A DNA stretch of 64,000 nt from Candidatus Zipacnadia bacterium. GTDB lineage: Bacteria; Armatimonadota; Zipacnadia; Zipacnadales; UBA5352. A program made the position numbers and the translations under genes. Of the stretch, positions 4,625 to 56,868 are shown piece after piece (the stretch's first letter is position 1; each line of letters starts with the position of its first letter). The stretch is from assembly GCA_029821635.1 (NCBI GenBank), contig JALGSW010000001.1, positions 8,702 through 72,701 on the forward strand. Direction: 5' to 3'. The notes below the pieces were generated by a model. It saw nothing but the letters and a program-made list of their open reading frames with translations. It was not told the origin of the DNA and did no database searches.

Positions 4625-7237
4625 TCAGCCTTCGTTGCCTTCGCCTGTGTCCCCAGGTGTGGTTACGACGACCGCCGAGCGCTCAAGGTCCAGCACGCGT
4701 TGCGCCATCTGCTGCACCTGCTCCGCCGTCACCGCTTCGATACGCTTGTCGTAGCTCTCCCAGTTCTGCGCGCCGAGCCCGTAGATCACGTCCAGCGCCA
4801 TCGTCTGCGCGACCGATGCGTTCGTCTCCAGCCCGGCGCGGTGTGCGGCGATCGCCGCTCGCTTGCCAAGCTCCAGCTCGTCCTGCGACGGCGGCTCCGC
4901 CACCAGCGATCGGATGATCGCCTCGATCCGCTCGCGCACAGTCGCGACCGTCTCCGGCGCCGTGCCGGCCTGGATGATGTACGCGCCCGGATCGAGCCCG
5001 AGCATCGGTGTCCCGTGCACGAAGTAGACGAGCTGCTCGCCGCGCAGTGTGTCGTGCAGCCGCCCGCCGGGCATCCCGGCGCCGGAGAGCACCGCGTCGA
5101 GCACGTCCAGCACGTCCGCGTCCGGGTCATTGACGGTCAGCGCGTGGAAGGCGCAGGCGACGATCGCCTGCGCCTGCGGGCGCTCGATAATCCGCTCGCG
5201 CGGCTGCTCGATCGGCTGCTCCGCGGGTGCGTCCGGCGGCTGCGGCGGCTCGGCCGTGAGCCCCTGCGTCAGGCGCTCGACCTCGGCGAACGCCGCGTCC
5301 GCGTCCACGTCACCGGCGATCACCACCGAGGTCGCGGCGGCTCGGGCGAAGGCCGCGTGGAATGCCTTGATGTCCGCGACGGTCAGGTCGCGCACCGACT
5401 CCTCTGTGCCGATCGGCGTGAAGCGGTAGGGGTGCTCGTGGAAGAGCTCCGCCAGCAGCGCCTGGATCGCCACCATCTGCACGCTGTCCTTCTGACGCGC
5501 GATGCCCGCCAGCGTGAGCTGCCGCTCGCGCTCGAGCTCGTCCGCCGGGAAGGTCGGGCGGAAGAGCGCGTCGAGCGTGAGCTCCAACGCCGCGGGCAGG
5601 TCGCCCGAGAGGAACTGCGCGTTCAGCCCGAAGCTGTTGCGGCCCGAGTACGGGGCGAGGCTGCCGCCGAGCCGGTCCACGCGCTCGGCCAGCTCCTGCC
5701 GCGTAAGGTGCTGCGTGCCGCGCACGAGCATCGACGCCATCAGCGAGGTGATGCCGACGTTCTCGGCGCTCTCGTAGCGCAGGCCGCCGAGAGTCGCGGT
5801 GCAGATGCTCACCGCCGGGATCGAGTGGTTCTCGCGCACCATGACGCGCAGGCCGTTGCCGAGCGTGCGCTCGTAGGTGCGCACCTCACCGGCGTCCGGC
5901 TCCTGTGTGCCCTCGTCCGTGCCCTCGACGGGCGGCCGAAGGATCGCGACGGTCATGCGCTCGGGCGCGAAGTACTTCTGCGCGACCTCGCTGACCTGCC
6001 GGGGCGTGACGCCGCGGATGCCCGCGACGTAGCGCTCCGTGAAGTCCACGTCGCCGGTCTGCATCAGGTTGCGCCCCAGCGTCGAGGCGCGGCCCTCCGC
6101 CGACTCCTGCCCGAACACCTCGGCCGCCTCGACCTGCTTGAGCACGCGCTCGATCTCGCGCTTGCGCGGCGCGCTCCGCTTGATCTCATCGAGCGTCGCC
6201 ACGATCTCCTGCTCGACGCGCGCGAGATTCGCCGGGTCCAGCGTGGCCCCGAATGCGAAGAAGCCCGCGTCGTAGCCGGGCGTGGCGGAGTAGCTCGACA
6301 CGTCATCGACGAGGCCCAGCTCGTCGCGCAGCCGCCGCACCAGCAGCGACGACTCGCCCGCGGTCAGGTAGCCCGAGAGCGTGTCGAGCGCGTAGAGGTC
6401 CTCATCGAAGAGGCTGATCGTCGGCCAGGCGATGCGCAGATAGGCGCGCTGAACGTTCGCGGCCTCCTCGACCCGTCGCCGGGGAGCGATTTGCTCGGGC
6501 TCCTGCGCGAGCTCCACCGCCGGACGCGGCCTGCGCGGGAGCGAGCTGTAGAGCTCGCGCAGCTGCGCCAGCACAGCCTCGCCGTCAAAGTCGCCGACCG
6601 CCGCCACCACGATGTTGCCGGGCCCGTAGAGCCGATCGTGATAGTCCACGATGTCATCTCGGGTGAGGCTGGTGAAAGCCTCCGGGTAGCCGATGATGCG
6701 GTAGCGGTCCGGGTGCGTGGTGAAGAGCGTCTGGTAGAGCAGATTCGTCACGCGGCGGATCGGGTCGTCATCCCCCATCGCCATCTCGCGCAGGATGATC
6801 CCGCGCTGGGTCTCGACGTGCTCGGCGGGGAAGGTCGGGTGCAGGACGAAGTCGGAGATGACGTCTGCCAGCCGGCCGATGTCCTCACCCGAGGTCGTCG
6901 CGTAATAGCAGGTGTGATCCTTGGTCGTGTACGCGTTGTAGGTGTTGCCGAGCGCGTCCAGCTCGGCCTCGATCTCCGCCAGCGTGCGGCTCTGGGAGCC
7001 CTCGCTGATGGTGTGTTCGAGGAAGTGCGTGATGCCGCCACCGAGGTACTGTCCCTCGTAGATCGAGCCGGCGCCGACGTACACGCGGAAAGACGCCACC
7101 GGGCGGGAGTGATCGACCTCCACCACCAGTCGGCAGCCGTTATCGAGCGTCTCCACCACCGGCTCGGCCGCTGCGATCTGCAGGCCCACCAGCAGCACGA
7201 GCGCGGAAAGCACCAGTCCCGATCGTGTCCGGCTCAT
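4625..7237 (-). CDS. M16 (pitrilysin/insulinase) family zinc peptidase, two-unit, secreted
   Basis: 870 aa with signal peptide MSRTRSGLVLSALVLLVGLQIAAAEP. Inverted zincin motif HFLEH (HxxEH) in GGITHFLEHT. A second M16-like half follows after about 450 aa. Confidence 0.85.
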   Translation of the reverse strand: MSRTRSGLVLSALVLLVGLQIAAAEPVVETLDNGCRLVVEVDHSRPVASFRVYVGAGSIYEGQYLGGGITHFLEHTISEGSQSRTLAEIEAELDALGNTYNAYTTKDHTCYYATTSGEDIGRLADVISDFVLHPTFPAEHVETQRGIILREMAMGDDDPIRRVTNLLYQTLFTTHPDRYRIIGYPEAFTSLTRDDIVDYHDRLYGPGNIVVAAVGDFDGEAVLAQLRELYSSLPRRPRPAVELAQEPEQIAPRRRVEEAANVQRAYLRIAWPTISLFDEDLYALDTLSGYLTAGESSLLVRRLRDELGLVDDVSSYSATPGYDAGFFAFGATLDPANLARVEQEIVATLDEIKRSAPRKREIERVLKQVEAAEVFGQESAEGRASTLGRNLMQTGDVDFTERYVAGIRGVTPRQVSEVAQKYFAPERMTVAILRPPVEGTDEGTQEPDAGEVRTYERTLGNGLRVMVRENHSIPAVSICTATLGGLRYESAENVGITSLMASMLVRGTQHLTRQELAERVDRLGGSLAPYSGRNSFGLNAQFLSGDLPAALELTLDALFRPTFPADELERERQLTLAGIARQKDSVQMVAIQALLAELFHEHPYRFTPIGTEESVRDLTVADIKAFHAAFARAAATSVVIAGDVDADAAFAEVERLTQGLTAEPPQPPDAPAEQPIEQPRERIIERPQAQAIVACAFHALTVNDPDADVLDVLDAVLSGAGMPGGRLHDTLRGEQLVYFVHGTPMLGLDPGAYIIQAGTAPETVATVRERIEAIIRSLVAEPPSQDELELGKRAAIAAHRAGLETNASVAQTMALDVIYGLGAQNWESYDKRIEAVTAEQVQQMAQRVLDLERSAVVVTTPGDTGEGNEG

Positions 7238-7365
7238 GGCATCTCCATCTGAACCATCAATTGCGCCCGGCCCCGGCGGAAGACCGGAGCCGCGCGCATC
7301 GCACAGAAGCGTAGCATACGCGCGGGCGCGAAGTCAACGGACTTTGCGGCCTCTCAAGGGACCAC

Positions 7366-7388
7366 TGACGGGCAGGATGCCCGTCCTA
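7366..7388. repeat. REP-like hairpin with CTAC tail (singlet)
   Basis: GACGGGCA-GGA-TGCCCGTC-CTAC. Its reverse complement, GTAG-GACGGGCA-TCC-TGCCCGTC, resembles the GTAG-GACAGGCT-TTCC-AGCCTGTC units at 54388-54456. It lies in the divergent intergenic region between the M16 peptidase gene and comF. Confidence 0.4.
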
Positions 7389-7454
7389 CAAACGACAAAC
7401 GACGGGCTCCCGCGGCGAAGGTATGCCCCCTCGCCCGTCGAACCGCCCAAGACC

Positions 7455-8249
7455 ATGCGTTCACGGGGGCTCGGCTCGCAACTGCTCGACCTGCTCTTCC
7501 CGCCACGCTGCCAGGTCTGCCGGAGTTTCTCGGCCGACCCGCTCTGTGAGACGTGCCGCGGCGAGTCGCTGTTCATCGCAGAGCGCCGCTGCCCGTGCTG
7601 CGGCACCCCTCTGCGCGACCGCGCGCCCGAGTCGCTGCCCGGCGCACTGTGCGCGGATTGCCGCGATGGCCGCTGGATCAGCGGCGCCCGCTCGGTCGGG
7701 CTGCACACGGGGGCGCTGCGCACCGCCATGATCGCCTACAAGTTCCACAGTCGCACGCGTATTGCACCGACCTTCGCGGAGATGATCGGCGACGTGGCAC
7801 GTCGCGAGGTGGGGGGGGCGCGCCCCGGTCTGCCGCTCGACCGCTGCCGCGCGCTCCTGCCCGTTCCGCTGCACCCGAAGCGCCGGGCGTGGCGCGGCTT
7901 CGACCAGGCGGAGATGCTCTGCCGGGGGCTCGCCGAGCCACTCGGGCTCCCCGTCTGGACCGACGCCCTGGCGCGGATCCGCGAGACGCAGCCGCAGACG
8001 CAGGTGCCGGGCCCGCTTCGGCGCGCCAACGTGCGCGGGGCATTCGAGGCGCGCAAGCCCTGGCGGCTCAAGGGCGCATCGCTGATCCTCGTCGATGACG
8101 TCATGACCACCGGCTCGACGCTGGAGGAGTGCGCGCGGGTGCTCAAGTATGCGGGTGCCGCGTCTGTCTACGCGCTCACCGTCACGCGCGCCGTCCCGAG
8201 CTGGCTCGTGGACGCCGACGCACATCCAGGAGGCGTCGCTGATGCTTGA
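7455..8249 (+). CDS. comF: ComF-family phosphoribosyltransferase-domain protein
   Basis: N-terminal Cys pairs (CQVC...CETC, CPCCG...CADC) and the PRTase motif LILVDDVMTTGSTL. The start is set at ATG 7455 (MRSRGLGSQLLDLLFPPRC). The 73-codon upstream extension in the track has no support. Confidence 0.8.
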   Translation: MRSRGLGSQLLDLLFPPRCQVCRSFSADPLCETCRGESLFIAERRCPCCGTPLRDRAPESLPGALCADCRDGRWISGARSVGLHTGALRTAMIAYKFHSRTRIAPTFAEMIGDVARREVGGARPGLPLDRCRALLPVPLHPKRRAWRGFDQAEMLCRGLAEPLGLPVWTDALARIRETQPQTQVPGPLRRANVRGAFEARKPWRLKGASLILVDDVMTTGSTLEECARVLKYAGAASVYALTVTRAVPSWLVDADAHPGGVADA

Positions 8250-10095
8250 GGCCACGATCACCGTCGATCCCTCCCGCCCGACCGGCTCCGTCAGCCCGCT
8301 CATCTTCGGGCACTTCATCGAGCAGCTCGGGCGTTGCATCACCGGCGGCATCCACGCCGAGATGCTGCGCTCCCGGCGCTTCACGGGCTTTGACGAGGAT
8401 CGCGACGGCCTCGCCGACCCCTGGCGGAAGCTCGGCGGGCGCGCGCCGCACCTGCTCGTCGAGCCGCCCGCAGAGTCGTCCGGTGGCGCGCTCACGATGC
8501 GCTGCCTGCGCGACACCGGCGAGCCGCATCGCATCGCCCACGCCGGCCTGGCGGTCCGTGCCGGCGTGGAGTACGCGCTCTCCGTCGAGTTGCGGACCTC
8601 GCCCGGCATCACCGAGGTGCTGCTCGGCCTCGGCGGTGAGACGCACGTGCTGCCCGCGCCCGGCCCCGACGGCGCGCGCATAGAACGCACCGTCACCTCC
8701 CACTGGGACAGCGACGACGACGCGCTCGTGATCGGCTGCCGCGGCGCGGGCACGATGCAGGTGCGCGGGCCGAGCGTGCTGGCCGTGCGCGACCTGGAGC
8801 TGGGCGGCCTCCGCGCCGACGTGGTTGAGCTGGTGCGCGCGATCGAGCCGCCGATCATCCGCTGGCCCGGAGGCTGCTTCGCCGACGGCTACCGCTGGCG
8901 CGACGGCGTCGGCGAGCCCCACGCGCGCCCCGCCAGCTTCGATCCGGCGTGGGGGGCGTGGGATGACAATGACTTCGGCACCGCGGAATTCGTGCGCTTC
9001 TGCCGCCTCGTCGGCGCCGAGCCCTACATCTGCGTCAACACCGGCAGCGATGACGCGGACTCTGCGGCCGAGTGGGTGGGCTGGTGCCGCGAGCGCGACC
9101 TTGGTGTGCACTGGTGGGGGATCGGCAACGAGACCTACGGGAGCTGGGAGATCGGCAACGTGCCCGCGGACGAGTACGCCCGGCTCTTCGTGCGCTTCGC
9201 CGAGGCGATGCGGGCGGAGGACCCGTCGATCGAGCTGATCGCGGTCGGCGCCGATCCGGTGGACCATCCCCACTGGAACCCGACGGTGCTGCGCATCGCG
9301 GGCGAGCAGATCGACCACCTGTCCGTGCATCGCTACGTTCCGCACCGGCGCGACGATGCGGCGCGCGAGCGGCAGTTCCGGGCGATCGTCGCGGCCCCGT
9401 TGGACATCGAGCGGCGGCTGCGCCTGGTCGCGGAGACGATCGACGAGGTCCTCGGCGCGGGCAGCGGCGTTGGCATCGCGTTCGACGAGTGGAATGTCTG
9501 GCTCGACGCAGCCGGCGACGATGGCATCGAGGAGCGCTACGAACTGCGCGACGCTCTGTTCGCGGCAGGCGTCTTCAACGCGATGAATCGGCTGGGCGAT
9601 CGGCTGTCGATGGCCAACCTCGCGCAGCTCGTGAACGTGCTGCCCGCGATCGTCACTGCGCCGACCGCCGCCTGGGGGACACCGCTCTATCACGCGTTCT
9701 CACTCTACCGCCGCTGTCACGGGGAGGCCCTCTCCTGCGAGTGCGCCTCGCCGGCCTTCGATGCGGAGGCTTTCGGCAACATCCCGGCGCTGGATGGCGT
9801 GCCGTGGCTGGATGTGAGCGCGGTTCTCGCCGACGATGGCCGCGAGGTCGTGCTGGCGGCGGTGAACCGGCATCCGTCGGAGGCCGTGCAGGCGCGGATC
9901 GCAGTGGGGGAGAGCGTCGTGGGCATCGAGCGGGCGACGCTCACCGGCGCGAGCGAGGCCGCCGCGAACTCGGAGGCCCTGCCCAACGCCGTGGCGGTAC
10001 ACACTGAGCCACTGGAGCTGCGGGGAGAGAGCTTCGGCATCGTGTTCCCGCCGCATTCGGCGACGGTGTTGAGGCTCAGCCGGCAGAGCCCCTGA
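8242..10095 (+). CDS. alpha-L-arabinofuranosidase, GH51-like
   Basis: PLIFGHFIEQLGRCI, IRWPGGCFADGYRWRDGVG and WWGIGNETYGSWEIG (GNE acid/base region) are GH51-type motifs. The ATG at 8242 overlaps the comF stop (ATGCTTGA). Confidence 0.75.
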   Translation: MLEATITVDPSRPTGSVSPLIFGHFIEQLGRCITGGIHAEMLRSRRFTGFDEDRDGLADPWRKLGGRAPHLLVEPPAESSGGALTMRCLRDTGEPHRIAHAGLAVRAGVEYALSVELRTSPGITEVLLGLGGETHVLPAPGPDGARIERTVTSHWDSDDDALVIGCRGAGTMQVRGPSVLAVRDLELGGLRADVVELVRAIEPPIIRWPGGCFADGYRWRDGVGEPHARPASFDPAWGAWDDNDFGTAEFVRFCRLVGAEPYICVNTGSDDADSAAEWVGWCRERDLGVHWWGIGNETYGSWEIGNVPADEYARLFVRFAEAMRAEDPSIELIAVGADPVDHPHWNPTVLRIAGEQIDHLSVHRYVPHRRDDAARERQFRAIVAAPLDIERRLRLVAETIDEVLGAGSGVGIAFDEWNVWLDAAGDDGIEERYELRDALFAAGVFNAMNRLGDRLSMANLAQLVNVLPAIVTAPTAAWGTPLYHAFSLYRRCHGEALSCECASPAFDAEAFGNIPALDGVPWLDVSAVLADDGREVVLAAVNRHPSEAVQARIAVGESVVGIERATLTGASEAAANSEALPNAVAVHTEPLELRGESFGIVFPPHSATVLRLSRQSP

Positions 10096-52450: not shown

Positions 52451-53578
52451 ATGAGCAGTCACAGGATCGCGGTCATTGACGGAGACGGGATCGGGCCGGA
52501 GGTCGTGGCGGAGGTTCTGCGCGTCCTCGACGCGGTCGCAGAGCCCGCGGGCTTCGAGTACGAGACGACGCTCTTCCCGTGGGGCTGCAGGTACTACGTC
52601 GAGCACGGGCACACGATGCCCGCCGACGCCATCGCGATGCTCGCACACTACGACGCGATCTTCCTCGGCGCGGTCGGTGACCCACGCATCGCGCCTGAGG
52701 AGGTCGCGGGTGTCGGACCGGTGCTCGCGATCCGCTTCGGCTTCGATCAGTACGCGAACATCCGCCCGGTCAAACCCCTTCCCGGCGCCCCCTACCCGCT
52801 CGCGCGCCCCGCGCCCGACGCGATCGACTTCACCGTGGTCCGCGAGGCCACCGAGGGCATCTACGTAGGCCTCGGCGGGCGCTTCGCCCCCGATGACCCT
52901 CAGGTCGCCGAGATCGTCGCGATGCGCAAAGTCTTCGAGCAGTCATCGGAGATCGCGCTGCAGACCGGCGTCTTCAGCGAGGCGGGCTCGCGGCGCGTCA
53001 TCGAGCGCGCGTTCCTGCTCGCCGAGGAGCGCGACGGCCGGCGCCTCGTCACGAGCGCCACGAAGGCCAACGCGATGAAGCACGGGATGTCGCTGTGGAA
53101 CGACGTGTTCGCCGACGTCGCGCGCGAGCACCCCGACGTGCAGAGCGAGTGGAACAACATCGACGCGCTGGCGATGCGCTTCGTGCTCAAGCCCGAAAGC
53201 CTCGACGTCGTGGTCGCGCCCAACCTCTTCGGTGACATCCTCACCGACCTGTCTGCGGCACTGCTCGGCGGCCTTGGCTTCGCACCCTCGGCCAACCTCG
53301 GCGACGGTCACTTCCCCGCGATGTTCGAGCCCTGCCACGGCTCGGCGCCGGACATCTCCGGGAAGGGCATCGCCAACCCGACGGCGTCGCTGCTTACGCT
53401 CGCGATGATGCTCGAGCGCCTCGGCGAGCAGGCGGCGGCGCGGGCGGTCGAGGATGCCGTGCGCTCGGTCGTGGCGGCGGGCGAGGTGCGCACCCCGGAC
53501 ATGGGTGGCGCCTCCTCGACCGAAGAGATGGGCCGCGCAATGGCAGGCATAGCCGCGGAGATGCTGGCGGAGCGCTGA
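52451..53578 (+). CDS. isocitrate/isopropylmalate dehydrogenase family, tartrate/D-malate dehydrogenase-like
   Basis: [36 protein letters not shown] and [10 protein letters not shown]. The F-x-W-x-C-x-x-Y...G-x-x-MP segment looks more TtuC/D-malate-type than LeuB-type. ATG 52451 follows GAGG. Confidence 0.7.
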
Positions 53579-56106
53579 TGGGGGCGCGCGCGCCGCTTCG
53601 CCGCCCCGCCCTCGCGGCCGTGGTCGCCGCGCTCGTGCTGGCGAGCTTGCCGTGCCGCGCCGGAGAGGTGGAGACGATGAGGCAGGAGCTTCCGTCGCGC
53701 GATGAGATCGAGCAGCTTCCCCCTGATGGTGGCGAGCAGTTCAACCGCCTGATCTTCGAGACGAGCCCCTACCTGTTGCAGCATGCGCGCAACCCCGTGG
53801 ACTGGTGGCCGTGGTCCGACGAGGCCTTCGAGCGCGCCCGCGAGCTCGACCGCCCCGTCTTCCTGTCGGTCGGCTACTCCACCTGTCACTGGTGCCACGT
53901 GATGGAGCGCGAGTCGTTCGAGAACAAGCGCATCGCCGAGCTCCTCAACGAGCGCTTCGTGCCCATCAAGGTGGACCGCGAGGAGCGGCCGGACGTCGAT
54001 GAGATATACATGGCCGCGACGCAGCTGATGGTCGGCCGCGGCGGCTGGCCCAACTCCGTGTGGCTCACTCCCGACGCCCGCCCGTGGTATGCGGGCACGT
54101 ACTTCCCGCCCGAGGGCGCGCCCGGCGTCCCCGGCTTCCGCGAGCTCCTCGGCAAGCTCGCCGACACCTGGGACGAGCAGCGCGACGACGTCGAGGCGCA
54201 GGCCGCGCAGCTTCAGGAGGCCGTGCGCGGCTCCGTCGCGCCTCGCGAACTCGCGCCGATGCCGCTGAGCGACGAGCTGCTTGGCGGCGCGGTCGAGGCA
54301 CTCTCCGATCAGTTCGACGAGCGCTACGGCGGCTTCGGCGGCGCGCCGAAGTTCCCGCCGCACAGCGCGCTGCGGCTTCTGTTGTTCGTAGGACAGGCTT
54401 TCCAGCCTGTCAATGGAGGACCACGTGCTGGTGACAGGCCCGAAAGCCTGTCCTACGAGACCCTCGACGCGATGGCCCGGGGCGGCATCCACGATCACGT
54501 CGGCGGCGGCTTCCACCGCTACTCGACCGACGCCTACTGGCTCGTCCCGCACTTCGAGAAGATGCTCTACGATAACGCGCAGCTCGCCGCCGTCTACGCC
54601 CTCGCGCACCAGGCGACCGGCTCGCAGGACTACGAGGTCGCCGCGCGGGGGATCTGCGACTGGGCTCTGCGTGAGATGGCCGATGAGGCGGGCGGCTTCT
54701 ACTCCGCGCTGGACGCCGACAGCGAGGGCGTTGAGGGCAAGTTCTACCTCTGGACGCGCGACGAGGTCACCGAGGTGCTCGGCGGTGAACGCGCCGCGCT
54801 CGCGTGCGAGCTCCTGAACATCCGCGCCGATGGGAACTTCGTCGACGAAGTCTCCGGGCACCGCTCCAACGCGAACATCCCGCACATCAGCCTTGCCGGA
54901 CTGGCGGACGATGCCCTGCGGCCGTTCCTGCGGCAGGCCGAGGAGCAGCTCCGCGAGCGCCGCAGCAGCCGCGTCCGCCCGCACCGCGATGAGAAGGTGC
55001 TGGCCTCGTGGAACGGGCTGATGATCTCCGGGCTCGCGACCGCCGGGCGCGTCTTCGGCGAGCAGCGTTACATCGACGCCGCTGTGCGGGCCGCCGACTT
55101 CATCCTGCGTGAGATGCGCGTGGACGGGCAGCGTGCCAACGCCCTGATGCGCGTCTGGCGTGACGGTGCGGTCAAGCAGCCCGGCTACCTCGACGACTAC
55201 GCGTTCCTCGCCGTCGGCCTGCTCGACTTGCACGTCGCGACCGGCGACGAGCGCTGGCTGACCGACGCCCGGTGGCTCGCCGACGAGACGCTGCGGCTCT
55301 TCGAAGACCGGGCGCAGGGCGGCTTCTTCTTGACCGCGCACGACAGCGAGGAGCTGCTCGCGCGCGTCAAGCGCCCCTTCGACCAGGCGATCCCGTCGGG
55401 CAACGCGATGGCGGCGCTCGCGCTGGTGCGACTGGCCGACTTGACCGGCGAGGAGCGCTACTCCGAGGCCGCCGGACGCACGCTGCGCGCCTTCTCCGCC
55501 GCGATGCGCAACGCACCCACGTCCACGGGGATGATGTTGCTCGCGACCGCGCACTACCTCAATCTCGCCGGCGACGCGGCCGAGGTCGCGCCGGTGGCGG
55601 TCGAGGCCGAGCCGGACGCGCGTACGCAGCGCGGGCCCGTGACGGTGGCGGCGTGGGCGTCGCGGCGGACCGCCGAGCCGGGCGGCGAGGTGGCGGTCGC
55701 GCTGCGCATCACTATCGCTGACGGCTGGCACATCAACGCGCACAAGCCGTTGCAGGACTACCTGGTCGCGACGGAGATCGAACTGGAGGAGGGCGCGCCC
55801 TACGCGCTGATGGAGGCGACGTGGCCGGATGCGATCGCGGTCGAGCCGGCCTTCAGCGACGAGCCGCTGGCGGTCTACGAGGGCGAGGCGTGGGTGCTCG
55901 CGCGCGTGAAGGTGCTGCCAGGCGCGGCCACAGGCGAAGCGCCTGCGGGCAACGCGCCGCTGCGGCTGACGCTGGTGGCGCAGCCCTGCGACGACAGCAC
56001 CTGCGCCCGACCCGAGCGCTACGCGCTGGAGCTGCCGATGCGCATCATGCGCGACGCTCCGGACGAGCAGCGCAACGAGGCGGTCTTCGAGCGCTTCGCG
56101 AACTGA
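53578..56106 (+). CDS. YyaL/SPATA20-like thioredoxin-domain protein with signal peptide and C-terminal DsbD-N-like extension
   Basis: [26 protein letters not shown]...[38 protein letters not shown]...[12 protein letters not shown]. The C-terminal [26 protein letters not shown] resembles the DsbD N-terminal-like domain. The ATG overlaps the previous stop (TGATG). Confidence 0.85.
54388..54456 (+). mobile_element. REPIN-like inverted doublet of REP units, in frame inside the yyaL-like CDS
   Basis: GTAG-GACAGGCT-TTCC-AGCCTGTC (54388-54411), a 21-nt spacer, then GACAGGC-CCGAAA-GCCTGTC-CTAC (54433-54456). The outer 15-bp arms GTAGGACAGGCTTTC / GAAAGCCTGTCCTAC are perfect reverse complements. The two units are 22/24 identical when one is reverse-complemented. 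The 69 nt equal exactly 23 codons ([23 protein letters not shown]). Confidence 0.6.
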
Positions 56107-56127
56107 CGCCCGTCGCGCAACTACGAG

Positions 56128-56868
56128 GTGATGGCTTTGGCCGGGATCATCGACATGGTCACGAGCTTCGGGATCGACCGCACGCGCGAGTCCGACCTCG
56201 GCCTCGACTCGCTGCTCTCCGTCCTCGGCGAGCACGAGGTCGAGCGCGCGTACACCTGCTCGCTGCACGCGGTCTGGTACACCGGGCCGCAGGGCAACGA
56301 CGAGACGCTCCGCGCGTGCGAGGCGCACGAAGTCCTGCGGCCGGCGGCGGTGCTCGACCCGCGCCGCTACTTCGATCAGCAGGACGAGGCGCGGCGCTGC
56401 TTCGACCGCGGCTGCTCGGTCTTCCGCTTTTTCCCGCACCAGCAGGGCTGGCCGTTCGAGTTCCTGCCCTTCATCAAGATCTGCGAGACGCTCGCGGAGC
56501 TTGGCGCGCGCGCGATCGTCCCCGCGAGCGCCTACGGTGAGGCCACGCGCGTTGCGCATCTGCTCGCCCACCTGGAGCTGCCGGTGCTGCTGATCGGTGG
56601 CGGCTACGCGAACATCGGCGAGCTGATGGCGGTGCTCGCGGAATTCCCGACGATGCACTGCGACGCGCACGTGCAGGACGGCCCGTTCGCGCTGGAGGGG
56701 CTGATGGAGCGTGGGGGAGAGGATCGCGTGATCTTCGGCTCGAACTCGCCCGAGCGGGAGTTCCTGGCGCCGCTCTTGATGGCGCGGCACGCAGAGCTCA
56801 CCGACGAGCAGCGGCGAGGCTACCTGCATGACAACGCGCTCGCGTTCCTCGGGGAGGGAGCGGCATGA
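56128..56868 (+). CDS. amidohydrolase-2-like TIM-barrel protein (paralogue of next gene)
   Basis: 246 aa, similar in length and C-terminal pattern (VIFGSNSPEREF...YLHDNALAFLG) to the downstream gene (IVFGSDMDLLDP...VYYDNGARLLG). The metal-binding N-terminal HxH is not obvious. Confidence 0.5.
   Translation: MMALAGIIDMVTSFGIDRTRESDLGLDSLLSVLGEHEVERAYTCSLHAVWYTGPQGNDETLRACEAHEVLRPAAVLDPRRYFDQQDEARRCFDRGCSVFRFFPHQQGWPFEFLPFIKICETLAELGARAIVPASAYGEATRVAHLLAHLELPVLLIGGGYANIGELMAVLAEFPTMHCDAHVQDGPFALEGLMERGGEDRVIFGSNSPEREFLAPLLMARHAELTDEQRRGYLHDNALAFLGEGAA

What the first reader, a model, noticed from the sequence alone, without database searches (positions are those of the whole stretch)
54388..54456. 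REPIN-like element (two inverted REP units with GTAG heads) inserted in frame in a conserved yyaL-like gene
The 69-nt segment reads GTAG + hairpin (GACAGGCT/AGCCTGTC), a 21-nt spacer, then hairpin (GACAGGC/GCCTGTC) + CTAC. The outer 15-bp arms are perfect reverse complements. A GTAG head followed by a palindrome is the hallmark of REP sequences recognised by RAYT (IS200/IS605-like) transposases, and inverted REP doublets are known as REPINs. Those are normally intergenic. Here the element is exactly 23 codons, keeps the frame open ([23 protein letters not shown]), and sits between the conserved KFP and TLDAMARGG blocks, where YyaL-type proteins normally have a helical segment. This resembles the in-frame palindromic-element insertions known from Rickettsia (RPEs). 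It may represent exaptation of a mobile repeat into a protein loop, or an mRNA structure with a regulatory role.
Basis: partly seen in the sequence, partly recalled or inferred. Interest (0 to 1): 0.65.

Follow-up and report, generated by a model that had tools for sequence, protein, structure and literature searches.

The report
In-frame REPIN inside a yyaL-like gene
A 69-base mobile palindromic repeat (two inverted "REP" hairpins of a family that is mobilised by RAYT transposases) has overwritten 45 bases of a conserved thioredoxin-fold gene without breaking its reading frame. This is a clear but already documented kind of event.

Summary
Window 54388-54456 is GTAG-hairpin / 21-nt spacer / hairpin-CTAC, in frame in an 842-aa DUF255/YyaL-like gene, and no shuffle of the window reproduces it.

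It belongs to a large repeat family. The half-site GTAG-GACAGGC-N6-GCCTGTC occurs in at least 117 genome loci from more than 10 phyla and at least 120 metagenome loci. It is often found as the same inverted doublet. In five loci it lies beside genes that match NCBIfam "REP-associated tyrosine transposase". So "REPIN-like" is supported.

Orthologues carry 15 residues at this place (107 of 116 homologues), so the 69 nt replaced 45 nt, a net gain of 8 residues. Third-position GC is 48% in the element against 93% in the rest of the gene, which marks it as foreign.

AlphaFold models, with and without the element, show that the arms encode the end of helix α1 and the start of helix α2. The native 2-residue turn becomes an 11-residue loop of lower confidence. 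The rest of the fold and all invariant residues are kept.

Intragenic GTAG-REP dimers encoding 20-30 residues were described by Di Nocera et al. (2013). This is therefore a new member of a known kind. Nothing supports exaptation or regulation.

The parts
54388..54456 (+). Whole REPIN-like element (69 nt, 23 codons, [23 protein letters not shown]). It replaces the 15 native codons between ..LLLF and ETLDAM.
   Evidence: Sequence; inverted repeat; folding; codon alignment with six orthologue genes; GC3 48% against 93% in the rest of the gene.
54388..54411 (+). Left REP unit: GTAG head, 8-bp stem GACAGGCT/AGCCTGTC, TTCC tetraloop. Encodes VGQAFQPV; V271-A274 are modelled as the last turn of helix α1.
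   Evidence: -8.6 kcal/mol as DNA, z = -6.2. The identical 24-mer occurs 108 times in the metagenome loci retrieved. The 8th stem pair covaries across the family. AF2 secondary structure.
54412..54432 (+). 21-nt spacer AATGGAGGACCACGTGCTGGT (NGGPRAG). All 7 codons end in A or T. It is modelled as part of an 11-residue loop.
   Evidence: Spacers of other doublets in the family differ in length and sequence.
54433..54456 (-). Right REP unit in inverted orientation (on the minus strand GTAGGACAGGCTTTCGGGCCTGTC): 7-bp stem, two differences from the left unit. Encodes DRPESLSY, modelled as the start of helix α2.
   Evidence: This exact variant was seen once elsewhere (L165).
53578..56106 (+). Host gene: 842-aa secreted-type YyaL/DUF255 protein (Thioredox_DsbH domain, (α/α)6 barrel, DsbD_N-like C-terminal domain). 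Full length, with all family-invariant residues present.
   Evidence: Pfam; PDB 7tkv by sequence (E = 2.9e-113) and by fold (TM-score on the target 0.84); alignments A1 and A2; AF2 mean pLDDT 91.2; IMPDH-IsoDH-yyaL gene order shared with WS1-type contigs.
7367..7389 (-). Second, single REP unit of a related variant (GTAGGACGGGCATCCTGCCCGTC; 8-bp stem with A-T changed to G-C). It lies between the M16 peptidase gene and a comF-like gene. It shows that this genome carries GTAG-tagged REPs outside yyaL.
   Evidence: 0.05 expected by chance; -9.7 kcal/mol as DNA, z = -4.9.

Best explanation
A non-autonomous REPIN has become part of the coding sequence of a yyaL-like gene in a WS1-type (Sumerlaeota-like) bacterium. 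A REPIN is two inverted GTAG-tagged REP hairpins, the substrate of REP-associated tyrosine (HUH/Y1) transposases, which act on single-stranded DNA.

The event put in 69 nt and removed the 45 nt that encoded the junction of the first two helices of the (α/α)6 domain. Both lengths are multiples of three, and the only stop-free frame of the element is the one in use, so the gene stayed open.

The left arm now supplies the last turn of helix α1. The right arm supplies the first two turns of helix α2. The spacer and neighbouring residues form an enlarged 11-residue loop where the native protein has a 2-residue turn.

The copy survives because this is the most length-variable spot of the protein. 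It is a tolerated passenger, not an adapted module. Excising it would no longer restore the native gene.

Shown here: the anatomy, family membership, RAYT association of the family, the replacement, foreign composition, and a preserved fold in the model. Inferred: RAYT-mediated arrival, the order of insertion and deletion, neutrality, and that the loop lies on the face of the barrel away from the conserved [15 protein letters not shown] loop.

The family:
My own estimate for 596 Gb, both strands, 18 fixed bases and equal base frequencies is about 17 chance matches.
- Twenty-two inverted doublets in those loci have the same architecture with variable spacers.
- The window's own variant gave at least 120 metagenome loci, with the exact left arm 108 times.
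- The 8th stem pair is Watson-Crick in 273 of 296 units, using all four pair types. The 9th pair is Watson-Crick in only 3 of 296.

RAYT link:
- NCBIfam REP_Tyr_transpos hits lie beside the repeats in L105 (93.7 bits), L142 (91.3), L172 (85.8), L176 (108.9) and L162 (67.7 on a partial translation). The curated cut-off is 80 bits.
- L105 also matches TnpArep, PDB 4er8.
- The L162 gene is flanked by the window's exact variant in inverted orientation.

Replacement:
- Codon-level comparison with six orthologue genes in conserved gene order.
- 107 of 116 homologues have 15 residues at this place; the window has 23.

Foreign origin:
- GC3 is 11/23 in the element against 0.93 in the rest of the gene (binomial P = 8e-9). 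It is the lowest 23-codon stretch of the gene, and the spacer scores 0/7.

Tolerance:
- AF2 gives mean pLDDT 91.2, with helices 262-274 and 286-301, a loop at 275-285, and block pLDDT of 68 and 70 between flanks of 96 and 97.
- Orthologue P0002 has helices 229-242 and 245-260 joined by a 2-residue turn.
- The model matches 7tkv.
- Other homologues carry 34-aa and 58-aa inserts in the same loop.

Precedent within this family:
- In-frame copies occur in recG (L011), an AddB-like nuclease (L059), an AlkZ-like glycosylase (L154 and L191) and a kinase/STAND protein (L243). All use the same frame, GTA GGA CAG GCN.

Precedent in the literature:
- Di Nocera et al. 2013, PMC3733652.
Against: - No RAYT gene is present in the 64-kb window (tblastn with two RAYT queries).
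- Only one other REP unit is in the window, so activity of the system in this genome is not shown.
- No sibling REPIN with the same spacer was found in any retrieved locus.
- Simple RAYT or IS200-type insertion does not explain the loss of 45 nt. A separate or coupled deletion has to be assumed.
- The 22 kb of WS1-type DNA held as L121/L122, and the other relatives' loci, carry no copy.
- The structure is a prediction. Protein function, expression and read support were not tested.
Confidence: 0.8

Rival explanations
1. Exapted element. The REPIN-encoded loop, or the strong hairpin it forms in the mRNA, has acquired a function and is kept by selection. Candidate functions are an interaction surface, translational pausing, an RNase III site or mRNA stabilisation.
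For: - The element now supplies helix termini that the gene cannot lose.
- The RNA hairpin is very stable (-50.1 kcal/mol).
- REPs are reported to act on transcripts (Di Nocera 2013).
- The same reading frame recurs in other intragenic copies.
Against: - The element occurs in 1 of 116 homologues, and none of the close orthologues has it.
- Its codon usage has not been adjusted to the host.
- It is the lowest-confidence stretch in that part of the model.
- Frame recurrence has a simpler cause. The second frame carries the TAG of the head, and the third frame of this copy carries a TGA (read directly from the sequence).
- No Rfam family reaches its threshold.
Confidence: 0.09
2. Silent inactivation. 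The replacement removed 15 native residues of a helix pair, and the open reading frame is an in-frame but non-functional gene on its way to decay.
For: The native stretch, including the moderately conserved ..ALxMAT.. start of helix α2, is gone. The event looks recent, so decay might not yet be visible.
Against: - All 64 invariant and the near-invariant family positions are intact.
- There are no frameshifts or stops over 842 codons.
- The model keeps the helix pair with native helix lengths.
- The same loop tolerates 34-aa and 58-aa inserts in other lineages.
Confidence: 0.06
3. Assembly or sequencing artefact, such as a chimeric join at a repeat or a hairpin artefact, rather than a real allele.
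For: The window comes from an uncultured-organism assembly. The protein cluster has a single member and a single contig. Repeats are classic sites of misassembly. Contigs carrying the RAYT genes are mostly very short.
Against: - Both flanks are the same gene, in order and in frame. The codons immediately adjacent to the element on each side align with the orthologues.
- The inserted piece is a complete doublet with the architecture of the family.
- A misjoin giving an exact multiple-of-three substitution in the only open frame is unlikely.
Confidence: 0.04
4. Local origin. The palindrome arose in place, for example by template-switch (quasi-palindrome) mutation of native sequence, and resembles REPs only by chance.
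For: The peptide encoded by the right arm ([11 protein letters not shown]) is loosely similar in character to the native RGEERALTMAT. Each arm is itself a hairpin.
Against: - The exact 24-mer of the left arm is the commonest variant of a family found in hundreds of unrelated loci.
- The GTAG/CTAC heads, stem and TTCC loop all match that family.
- GC3 of 48%, and 0/7 in the spacer, cannot come from native sequence that is 93% GC3.
Confidence: 0.01

Closest known systems
Intragenic GTAG-tagged REP dimers (Di Nocera, De Gregorio & Rocco 2013, BMC Genomics 14:522; PMC3733652)
   Same: - A GTAG head on a short stem-loop, arranged as an inverted dimer with a spacer.
- Located inside an ORF, in frame. 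[quoted passage not shown]
- The family is otherwise mostly next to 3' gene ends and is linked to RAYT genes.
- The paper's bias towards DNA-repair genes also appears in this family (recG, AddB-like, AlkZ-like).
   Different: - The host is a WS1-type lineage, and the gene is yyaL/DUF255. I found neither in the text or supplements of that paper (one search found none of the sequence or peptide strings searched for).
- This copy substitutes for 45 nt of native coding sequence instead of only adding residues.
- I could not check whether the GACAGGC stem corresponds to one of their 24 GTAG families, because the figure is not held.
REPINs and their RAYTs (Bertels & Rainey 2011, PMC3116915; Nunvar et al. 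2010, PMC2817692; TnpAREP structure 4er8, PMC3479197)
   Same: [quoted passage not shown]
- GTAG at the 5' end of each unit.
- RAYT genes flanked by the same REPs (L105, L162).
   Different: - Classical REPINs are extragenic, number tens to hundreds per genome and have conserved spacers. Here only one doublet and one singleton are visible in 64 kb, and no sibling with the same spacer was found.
- The same hairpin is shared across many phyla, while the adjacent RAYTs are only 26-59% identical. Described REPIN-RAYT systems are treated as lineage-specific (my reading of that literature, not checked here).
Rickettsia palindromic elements (RPEs)
   Same: Palindromic mobile repeats found in frame inside unrelated protein-coding genes and judged compatible with the fold of the host protein (review PMC10969869). 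Di Nocera et al. equate RPE-4 and RPE-6 with CGTC-tagged REPs.
   Different: RPE-1-type elements are about 100-150 bp, restricted to Rickettsia, encode a conserved peptide and are pure insertions. The element here is 69 nt, GTAG-tagged, belongs to a RAYT-associated family and replaced native codons.
IS200/IS605-derived hairpin MITEs
   Same: Short non-autonomous elements with hairpins at both ends, recognised as single-stranded DNA by a Y1 HUH transposase, with no target-site duplication. None is seen here.
   Different: The associated proteins score as REP_Tyr_transpos (85-109 bits), not as IS200 transposase (24-30 bits against a cut-off of 55). No tnpB or IS body is associated.

Membership tests
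GTAG-tagged REP superfamily (Di Nocera 2013) | Short palindrome forming a stem-loop with a 6-9 bp stem | tested here: met
   The stems are 8 bp and 7 bp. Family-wide, the 8th pair is Watson-Crick in 273/296 units with four pair types.
GTAG-tagged REP superfamily (Di Nocera 2013) | GTAG tetranucleotide at one end of the stem-loop | tested here: met
   GTAG at 54388-54391 and its complement CTAC at 54453-54456. In the genome loci, 80 of 168 hairpins have a GTAG head and 76 have a CTAC tail.
GTAG-tagged REP superfamily (Di Nocera 2013) | Member of a dispersed multi-copy family | tested here: inconclusive
   The family is abundant in other genomes and metagenomes. In this genome only 64 kb can be seen: three units at two loci.
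GTAG-tagged REP superfamily (Di Nocera 2013) | Predominantly extragenic, close to 3' gene ends | tested here: not met
   This copy is intragenic. The family behaves as expected: the TAG of the head closes an open frame of at least 150 codons in 59/305 units, against 6.9% of control TAGs. The source paper itself lists intragenic members, so this does not exclude membership.
GTAG-tagged REP superfamily (Di Nocera 2013) | RAYT (REP-associated tyrosine transposase) gene flanked by the same REPs | tested here: met
   Met for the family in other organisms: L105, L142, L172, L162 and L176. None is in the window, and the rest of this genome is not available.
REPIN (Bertels & Rainey 2011) | Two REPs in inverted orientation separated by a short spacer, foldable into one long hairpin | tested here: met
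   27-nt arms at 93% complementarity with 19 nt between them. Folding energy is -28.9 kcal/mol as DNA and -50.1 kcal/mol as RNA.
REPIN (Bertels & Rainey 2011) | The doublet replicates as a unit, giving several copies with a related spacer in the same genome | not testable with these tools
   Only 64 kb of the genome is available. No doublet with this spacer occurs in the 237 retrieved loci.
REPIN (Bertels & Rainey 2011) | Cognate RAYT in the same genome | not testable with these tools
   No RAYT is in the window. No WS1 or Sumerlaeota name appears among the 120 listed RAYT homologues.
Rickettsia palindromic elements | Rickettsia-specific element of about 100-150 bp encoding a conserved peptide, inserted without loss of host codons | tested here: not met
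   The element is 69 nt, sits in a WS1-type host, carries a GTAG tag, and 15 host codons were lost. It behaves like an RPE but is not one.
YyaL / DUF255 (Thioredox_DsbH) proteins (host gene) | N-terminal Thioredox_DsbH domain followed by an (α/α)6 barrel | tested here: met
   PF03190 at E = 4.6e-74. PDB 7tkv at E = 2.9e-113 by sequence and TM-score 0.84 by fold.

The most novel reading that the evidence does not exclude
The GTAG-GACAGGC hairpin marks one RAYT/REPIN system that moves between phyla (at least 10 phylum-level groups, plus 28 predicted viral contigs). Its hairpin stays nearly invariant while the transposases diverge to 26-59% identity. Its REPINs can overwrite coding DNA, not merely insert into it, so that arms pre-adapted to one open frame (VGQAxxPV...) take over as structural segments of host proteins. 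That would conflict with the picture of REPIN-RAYT systems as strictly vertically inherited, lineage-specific residents. It would also make REPINs a source of protein segment replacement.
Probability: 0.15. Interest if true: 0.55.

Novelty: new member of a known kind. Interest (0 to 1): 0.3.

Why it matters
- The finding adds a clean, well-delimited example of a REP doublet that has become coding sequence. It comes from a poorly studied candidate phylum and sits in a gene of known fold.
- It has an uncommon twist: the element substitutes for native helix ends instead of only decorating a loop. The gene can therefore no longer return to its ancestral state by excision.
- It is a small natural experiment on how much a helix-turn-helix junction of an (α/α)6 barrel can be rewritten.
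- The wider lead concerns the family more than this copy. One REP hairpin is shared across many phyla beside divergent RAYTs. It often supplies the stop codon of the upstream gene, and it recurs inside DNA-repair genes.
- For annotation, such segments should not be taken for lineage-specific protein motifs.

Tried and rejected
- **Rfam:** a scan of 54200-54650 at E ≤ 1 gave only sub-threshold, generic microRNA-precursor hairpin matches. Nothing was learned.
- **Literature by sequence:** full-text search for the repeat strings returned only unrelated primer hits. The RepRanger paper does not contain the motif. The Di Nocera supplements do not contain the sequence or peptide strings I searched for.
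- **Source contig:** looking up the window's own protein to recover the rest of the 82.7-kb contig failed; it is not on record.
- **Gene recurrently linked to the repeats:** all-against-all clustering of ORFs in the 117 genome loci gave only ordinary families such as response regulators, kinases, ABC transporters and TonB receptors. RAYT genes were found only with a directed tblastn search.
- **Relatives:** the WS1-type relatives' loci hold no copy of the repeat.
- **L140:** this contig comes from the same WGS project as a WS1 contig, but it showed no convincing relationship to the window.
- **Spacer as native remnant:** rejected, because 0 of its 7 codons end in G or C in a gene with 93% GC3.
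- **Target-site preference:** the nucleotides flanking 29 doublets show no consistent target sequence or duplication.
- **Candidate intragenic copies:** several lie upstream of the first Pfam domain and are probably outside the true gene (L161, L166, L074, L096, L216). They were not counted.
Full report
**1. The observation**

Window 54388-54456 reads GTAG-GACAGGCT-TTCC-AGCCTGTC, then 21 nt, then GACAGGC-CCGAAA-GCCTGTC-CTAC.
- The outer 15 nt are perfect reverse complements. The inverted repeat extends to 27-nt arms at 93% complementarity (54386-54412 / 54432-54458).
- Each arm is itself a hairpin. As DNA the left arm folds at -8.6 kcal/mol and the right arm at -6.8 kcal/mol.
- The whole element can form one long hairpin: -28.9 kcal/mol as DNA (z = -9.35) and -50.1 kcal/mol as RNA (z = -8.1).
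- The hairpin pattern occurs twice in the window against none in 100 shuffles.
- The 69 nt are 23 codons in frame with ORF 53578-56106 (+).

**2. The host gene**

The 842-aa product has a Thioredox_DsbH/DUF255 domain (E = 4.6e-74), weak matches to (α/α)6 glycosidase-like families, and a DsbD_N-like C-terminal domain.
- It matches the Brucella Bab1_2064 structure 7tkv by sequence (E = 2.9e-113) and by predicted fold (TM-score on the target 0.84).
- The closest database proteins are 59-76% identical. One of them is named "candidate division WS1 bacterium".
- Their contigs share the gene order IMPDH - isocitrate/isopropylmalate-type dehydrogenase - yyaL with the window. They are therefore orthologues, and the window most likely comes from a WS1-type bacterium. 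WS1 is called Sumerlaeota in GTDB; that equivalence is from my own knowledge, and only confirms the NCBI name.

**3. It is a replacement, not a plain insertion**

In the protein alignment the window has 23 residues where orthologues have 15. For example, P0002 reads LLLY-LHATRGEERALTMAT-ETLDAM and the window reads [33 protein letters not shown].
- At codon level the flanks TTC and GAG-ACC-CTC-GAC are native. Everything between them is the element.
- Among 116 homologues, 107 have exactly 15 residues in this interval.
- So 69 nt took the place of 45 nt (48 in P0007), a net gain of 8 residues.
- The TC...GA that lengthens the palindrome belongs to the native codons.

**4. The element is foreign**

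- Third-position GC is 93% in the rest of the gene and 48% (11/23) in the element (binomial P = 8e-9). The element is the lowest 23-codon stretch of the gene.
- The 7 spacer codons all end in A or T.
- Several codons are rare in neighbouring genes: GTA, GGA, CCT, CCA, AAT, AGG, GCT.

This rules out a native origin for any part of the 69 nt, including the spacer. It also suggests a recent arrival. An alternative is that the palindrome itself constrains the sequence.

**5. The repeat family**

My rough estimate for chance is about 17.
- The record titles name Acidobacteriota (most of them), Planctomycetota, Armatimonadota, Chloroflexota, Verrucomicrobiota/Kiritimatiellae, Lentisphaerae, Calditrichaeota, Omnitrophota, Firestonebacteria, Desantisbacteria and Xenobia. 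These are MAGs, so some assignments may be binning errors.
- Twenty-two inverted doublets in those loci have the window's architecture: GTAG-hairpin, a spacer of 0 to about 220 nt, hairpin-CTAC. The spacers are unrelated to each other.
- The commonest unit is GACAGGCA-TTCC-TGCCTGTC. The window has GACAGGCT-TTCC-AGCCTGTC, a compensatory change of the 8th pair.
- Over 296 oriented units the 8th pair is Watson-Crick in 273 (TA 140, AT 91, CG 28, GC 14). The next position pairs in only 3. The conserved object is therefore an 8-bp stem with a tetraloop.
The window's exact left arm occurred 108 times, and there were 7 more doublets.
- The window itself holds one more unit at 7367-7389 (-), GTAGGACGGGCATCCTGCCCGTC. 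It has a further compensatory change and lies between the M16 peptidase gene and a comF-like gene.

**6. Link to RAYT transposases**

Clustering the ORFs of the loci showed no recurrent neighbour. That is expected if the transposase gene is single-copy. A directed tblastn search found Y1-transposase genes beside the repeats in five loci.
- They score as NCBIfam NF047646 "REP-associated tyrosine transposase": L105 93.7 bits, L142 91.3, L172 85.8, L176 108.9, and L162 67.7 on a partial translation. The cut-off is 80 bits.
- They score far below the IS200 model's cut-off.
- L105 also matches Pfam Y1_Tnp and E. coli TnpArep, PDB 4er8.
- In L105 and L162 the gene is bracketed by inverted units of the family. 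In L162 these are the window's exact variant.
- Database homologues of the L142 protein are widely named "REP element-mobilizing transposase RayT".

The family therefore meets the criteria of GTAG-tagged REPs with REPtrons. No RAYT is encoded in the window. The rest of this genome cannot be examined.

**7. Effect on the protein**

- AlphaFold2 with 116 homologues gives mean pLDDT 91.2. Around the element it places helix 262-274, a loop at 275-285 and helix 286-301. The 10-residue pLDDT blocks are 68 and 70, between flanks of 96 and 97.
- The orthologue P0002, which lacks the element, has helix 229-242, a 2-residue turn and helix 245-260, with block pLDDT values of 95-98.
- Thus VGQA (left arm) stands in for the last turn of α1. 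DRPESLSY (right arm) stands in for the first turns of α2. The tight turn becomes an 11-residue loop.
- All invariant family positions are present.
- The loop is permissive. P0004, P0091 and P0097 have 3-5 extra residues, P0078 has 34 residues and P0109 has 58.
- The P0109 insert is itself an unrelated palindromic element with 28-nt inverted ends.
- By inference, this turn lies at the end of α2 opposite the conserved [15 protein letters not shown] loop, so away from the likely functional face.

**8. Precedent**

- Di Nocera et al. (2013) defined GTAG- and CGTC-tagged REP superfamilies in 8 phyla. They reported REPs inside genes, mostly dimers encoding 20-30 residues. These were most frequent in Opitutus terrae and often lay in replication and repair genes. 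The authors equated RPE-4 and RPE-6 of Rickettsia with such repeats.
- In the loci retrieved here, the family also occurs in frame in recG (VGQAPSPV), an AddB-like nuclease (VGQALLPV...), an AlkZ-like glycosylase (GGEAILPV...) and a kinase/STAND protein (VGQAFQPV...). All use the same frame.
- That frame is the only fully open one in the window copy. The second frame has the TAG of the head, and the third has a TGA (read).

**9. Mechanism and verdict**

The best-supported reading is this. A REPIN of a RAYT-associated family entered the α1-α2 junction of yyaL. Together with the loss of 45 nt, it produced an in-frame chimeric segment. The copy is tolerated because the site is structurally permissive.
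- How the 45 nt were lost is unknown. It could have been one coupled strand-transfer or deletion event, or insertion followed by deletion.
- I found no evidence for a new function of the peptide or of the mRNA hairpin. Silent inactivation and misassembly remain minor possibilities that only reads, relatives or experiments can settle.
The "23-codon insert" is really a 23-for-15 replacement. The exaptation idea is unsupported, except in the trivial sense that the gene now depends on the element's codons.
- This kind of event is already described, so this is a new member of a known kind. Interest is modest. The more intriguing lead is the cross-phylum conservation of the hairpin next to divergent RAYTs.

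Noticed in passing
window 7367-7389 (- strand): A second, single GTAG-tagged REP unit, GTAGGACGGGCATCCTGCCCGTC (8-bp stem, 3-nt loop). Its stem differs from the yyaL copy by a compensatory A-T to G-C change. It lies between the M16 peptidase gene (4625-7237, -) and a comF-like gene (7236-8249, +, whose first domain starts at residue 83).
   Followed up: partly
L001-L117 and L125-L244 (for example L105 3402-4024, L162 282-1091): The same REP hairpin (GTAG + GACAGGC-N6-GCCTGTC) is shared by MAGs assigned to more than 10 phyla, while the RAYT genes next to it are only 26-59% identical to each other. The DNA hairpin is far better conserved than its presumed transposase. This is odd if REP-RAYT systems are lineage-specific and vertically inherited.
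   Followed up: partly
L021 5841-5844; L035 6048-6051; 59 of 305 units overall: The TAG inside the GTAG head is the stop codon of an open frame of at least 150 codons in 19% of units, against 6.9% for random TAGs in the same loci. These REPs often abut or overwrite the 3' end of the upstream gene and supply its stop codon.
   Followed up: partly
L245 1744-1857 (gene of P0109); P0078 in L246: The same α1-α2 loop of YyaL homologues carries independent inserts in other lineages. P0109 has an in-frame insert of about 114 nt with 28-nt inverted ends (TCAACACGGAGGCACGGAGGACACTGAG / CTCCGTCCTCTCCGCGTCTCCGTGTTGA; 58 residues in the interval, 43 more than the usual 15). It is a different palindromic element. 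P0078 has a 34-residue low-complexity segment there.
   Followed up: partly
L011 3605-3628 (recG); L059 1521-1566 (AddB-like PD-(D/E)XK nuclease); L154 about 9440-9505 and L191 (AlkZ-like glycosylase); L243 3944-3967: Other in-frame intragenic copies of this REP family were found. Three of the four host genes act in DNA repair, echoing the bias noted by Di Nocera et al. 2013. All use the frame GTA GGA CAG GCN (VGQA...).
   Followed up: partly
L247-L274 (IMG/VR contigs): Twenty-eight predicted viral contigs carry the REP half-site, some as inverted doublets (L255, L266). They could be prophage or cellular contigs classed as viral, or a hint at a vehicle for spread between lineages.
   Followed up: no
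window 53308-56829 (- strand): A 1173-aa open frame runs antisense to yyaL and reads through the palindrome (…[13 protein letters not shown]…). Together with several other long antisense ORFs in this 68% GC window, it is most likely a composition artefact and not a gene.
   Followed up: no
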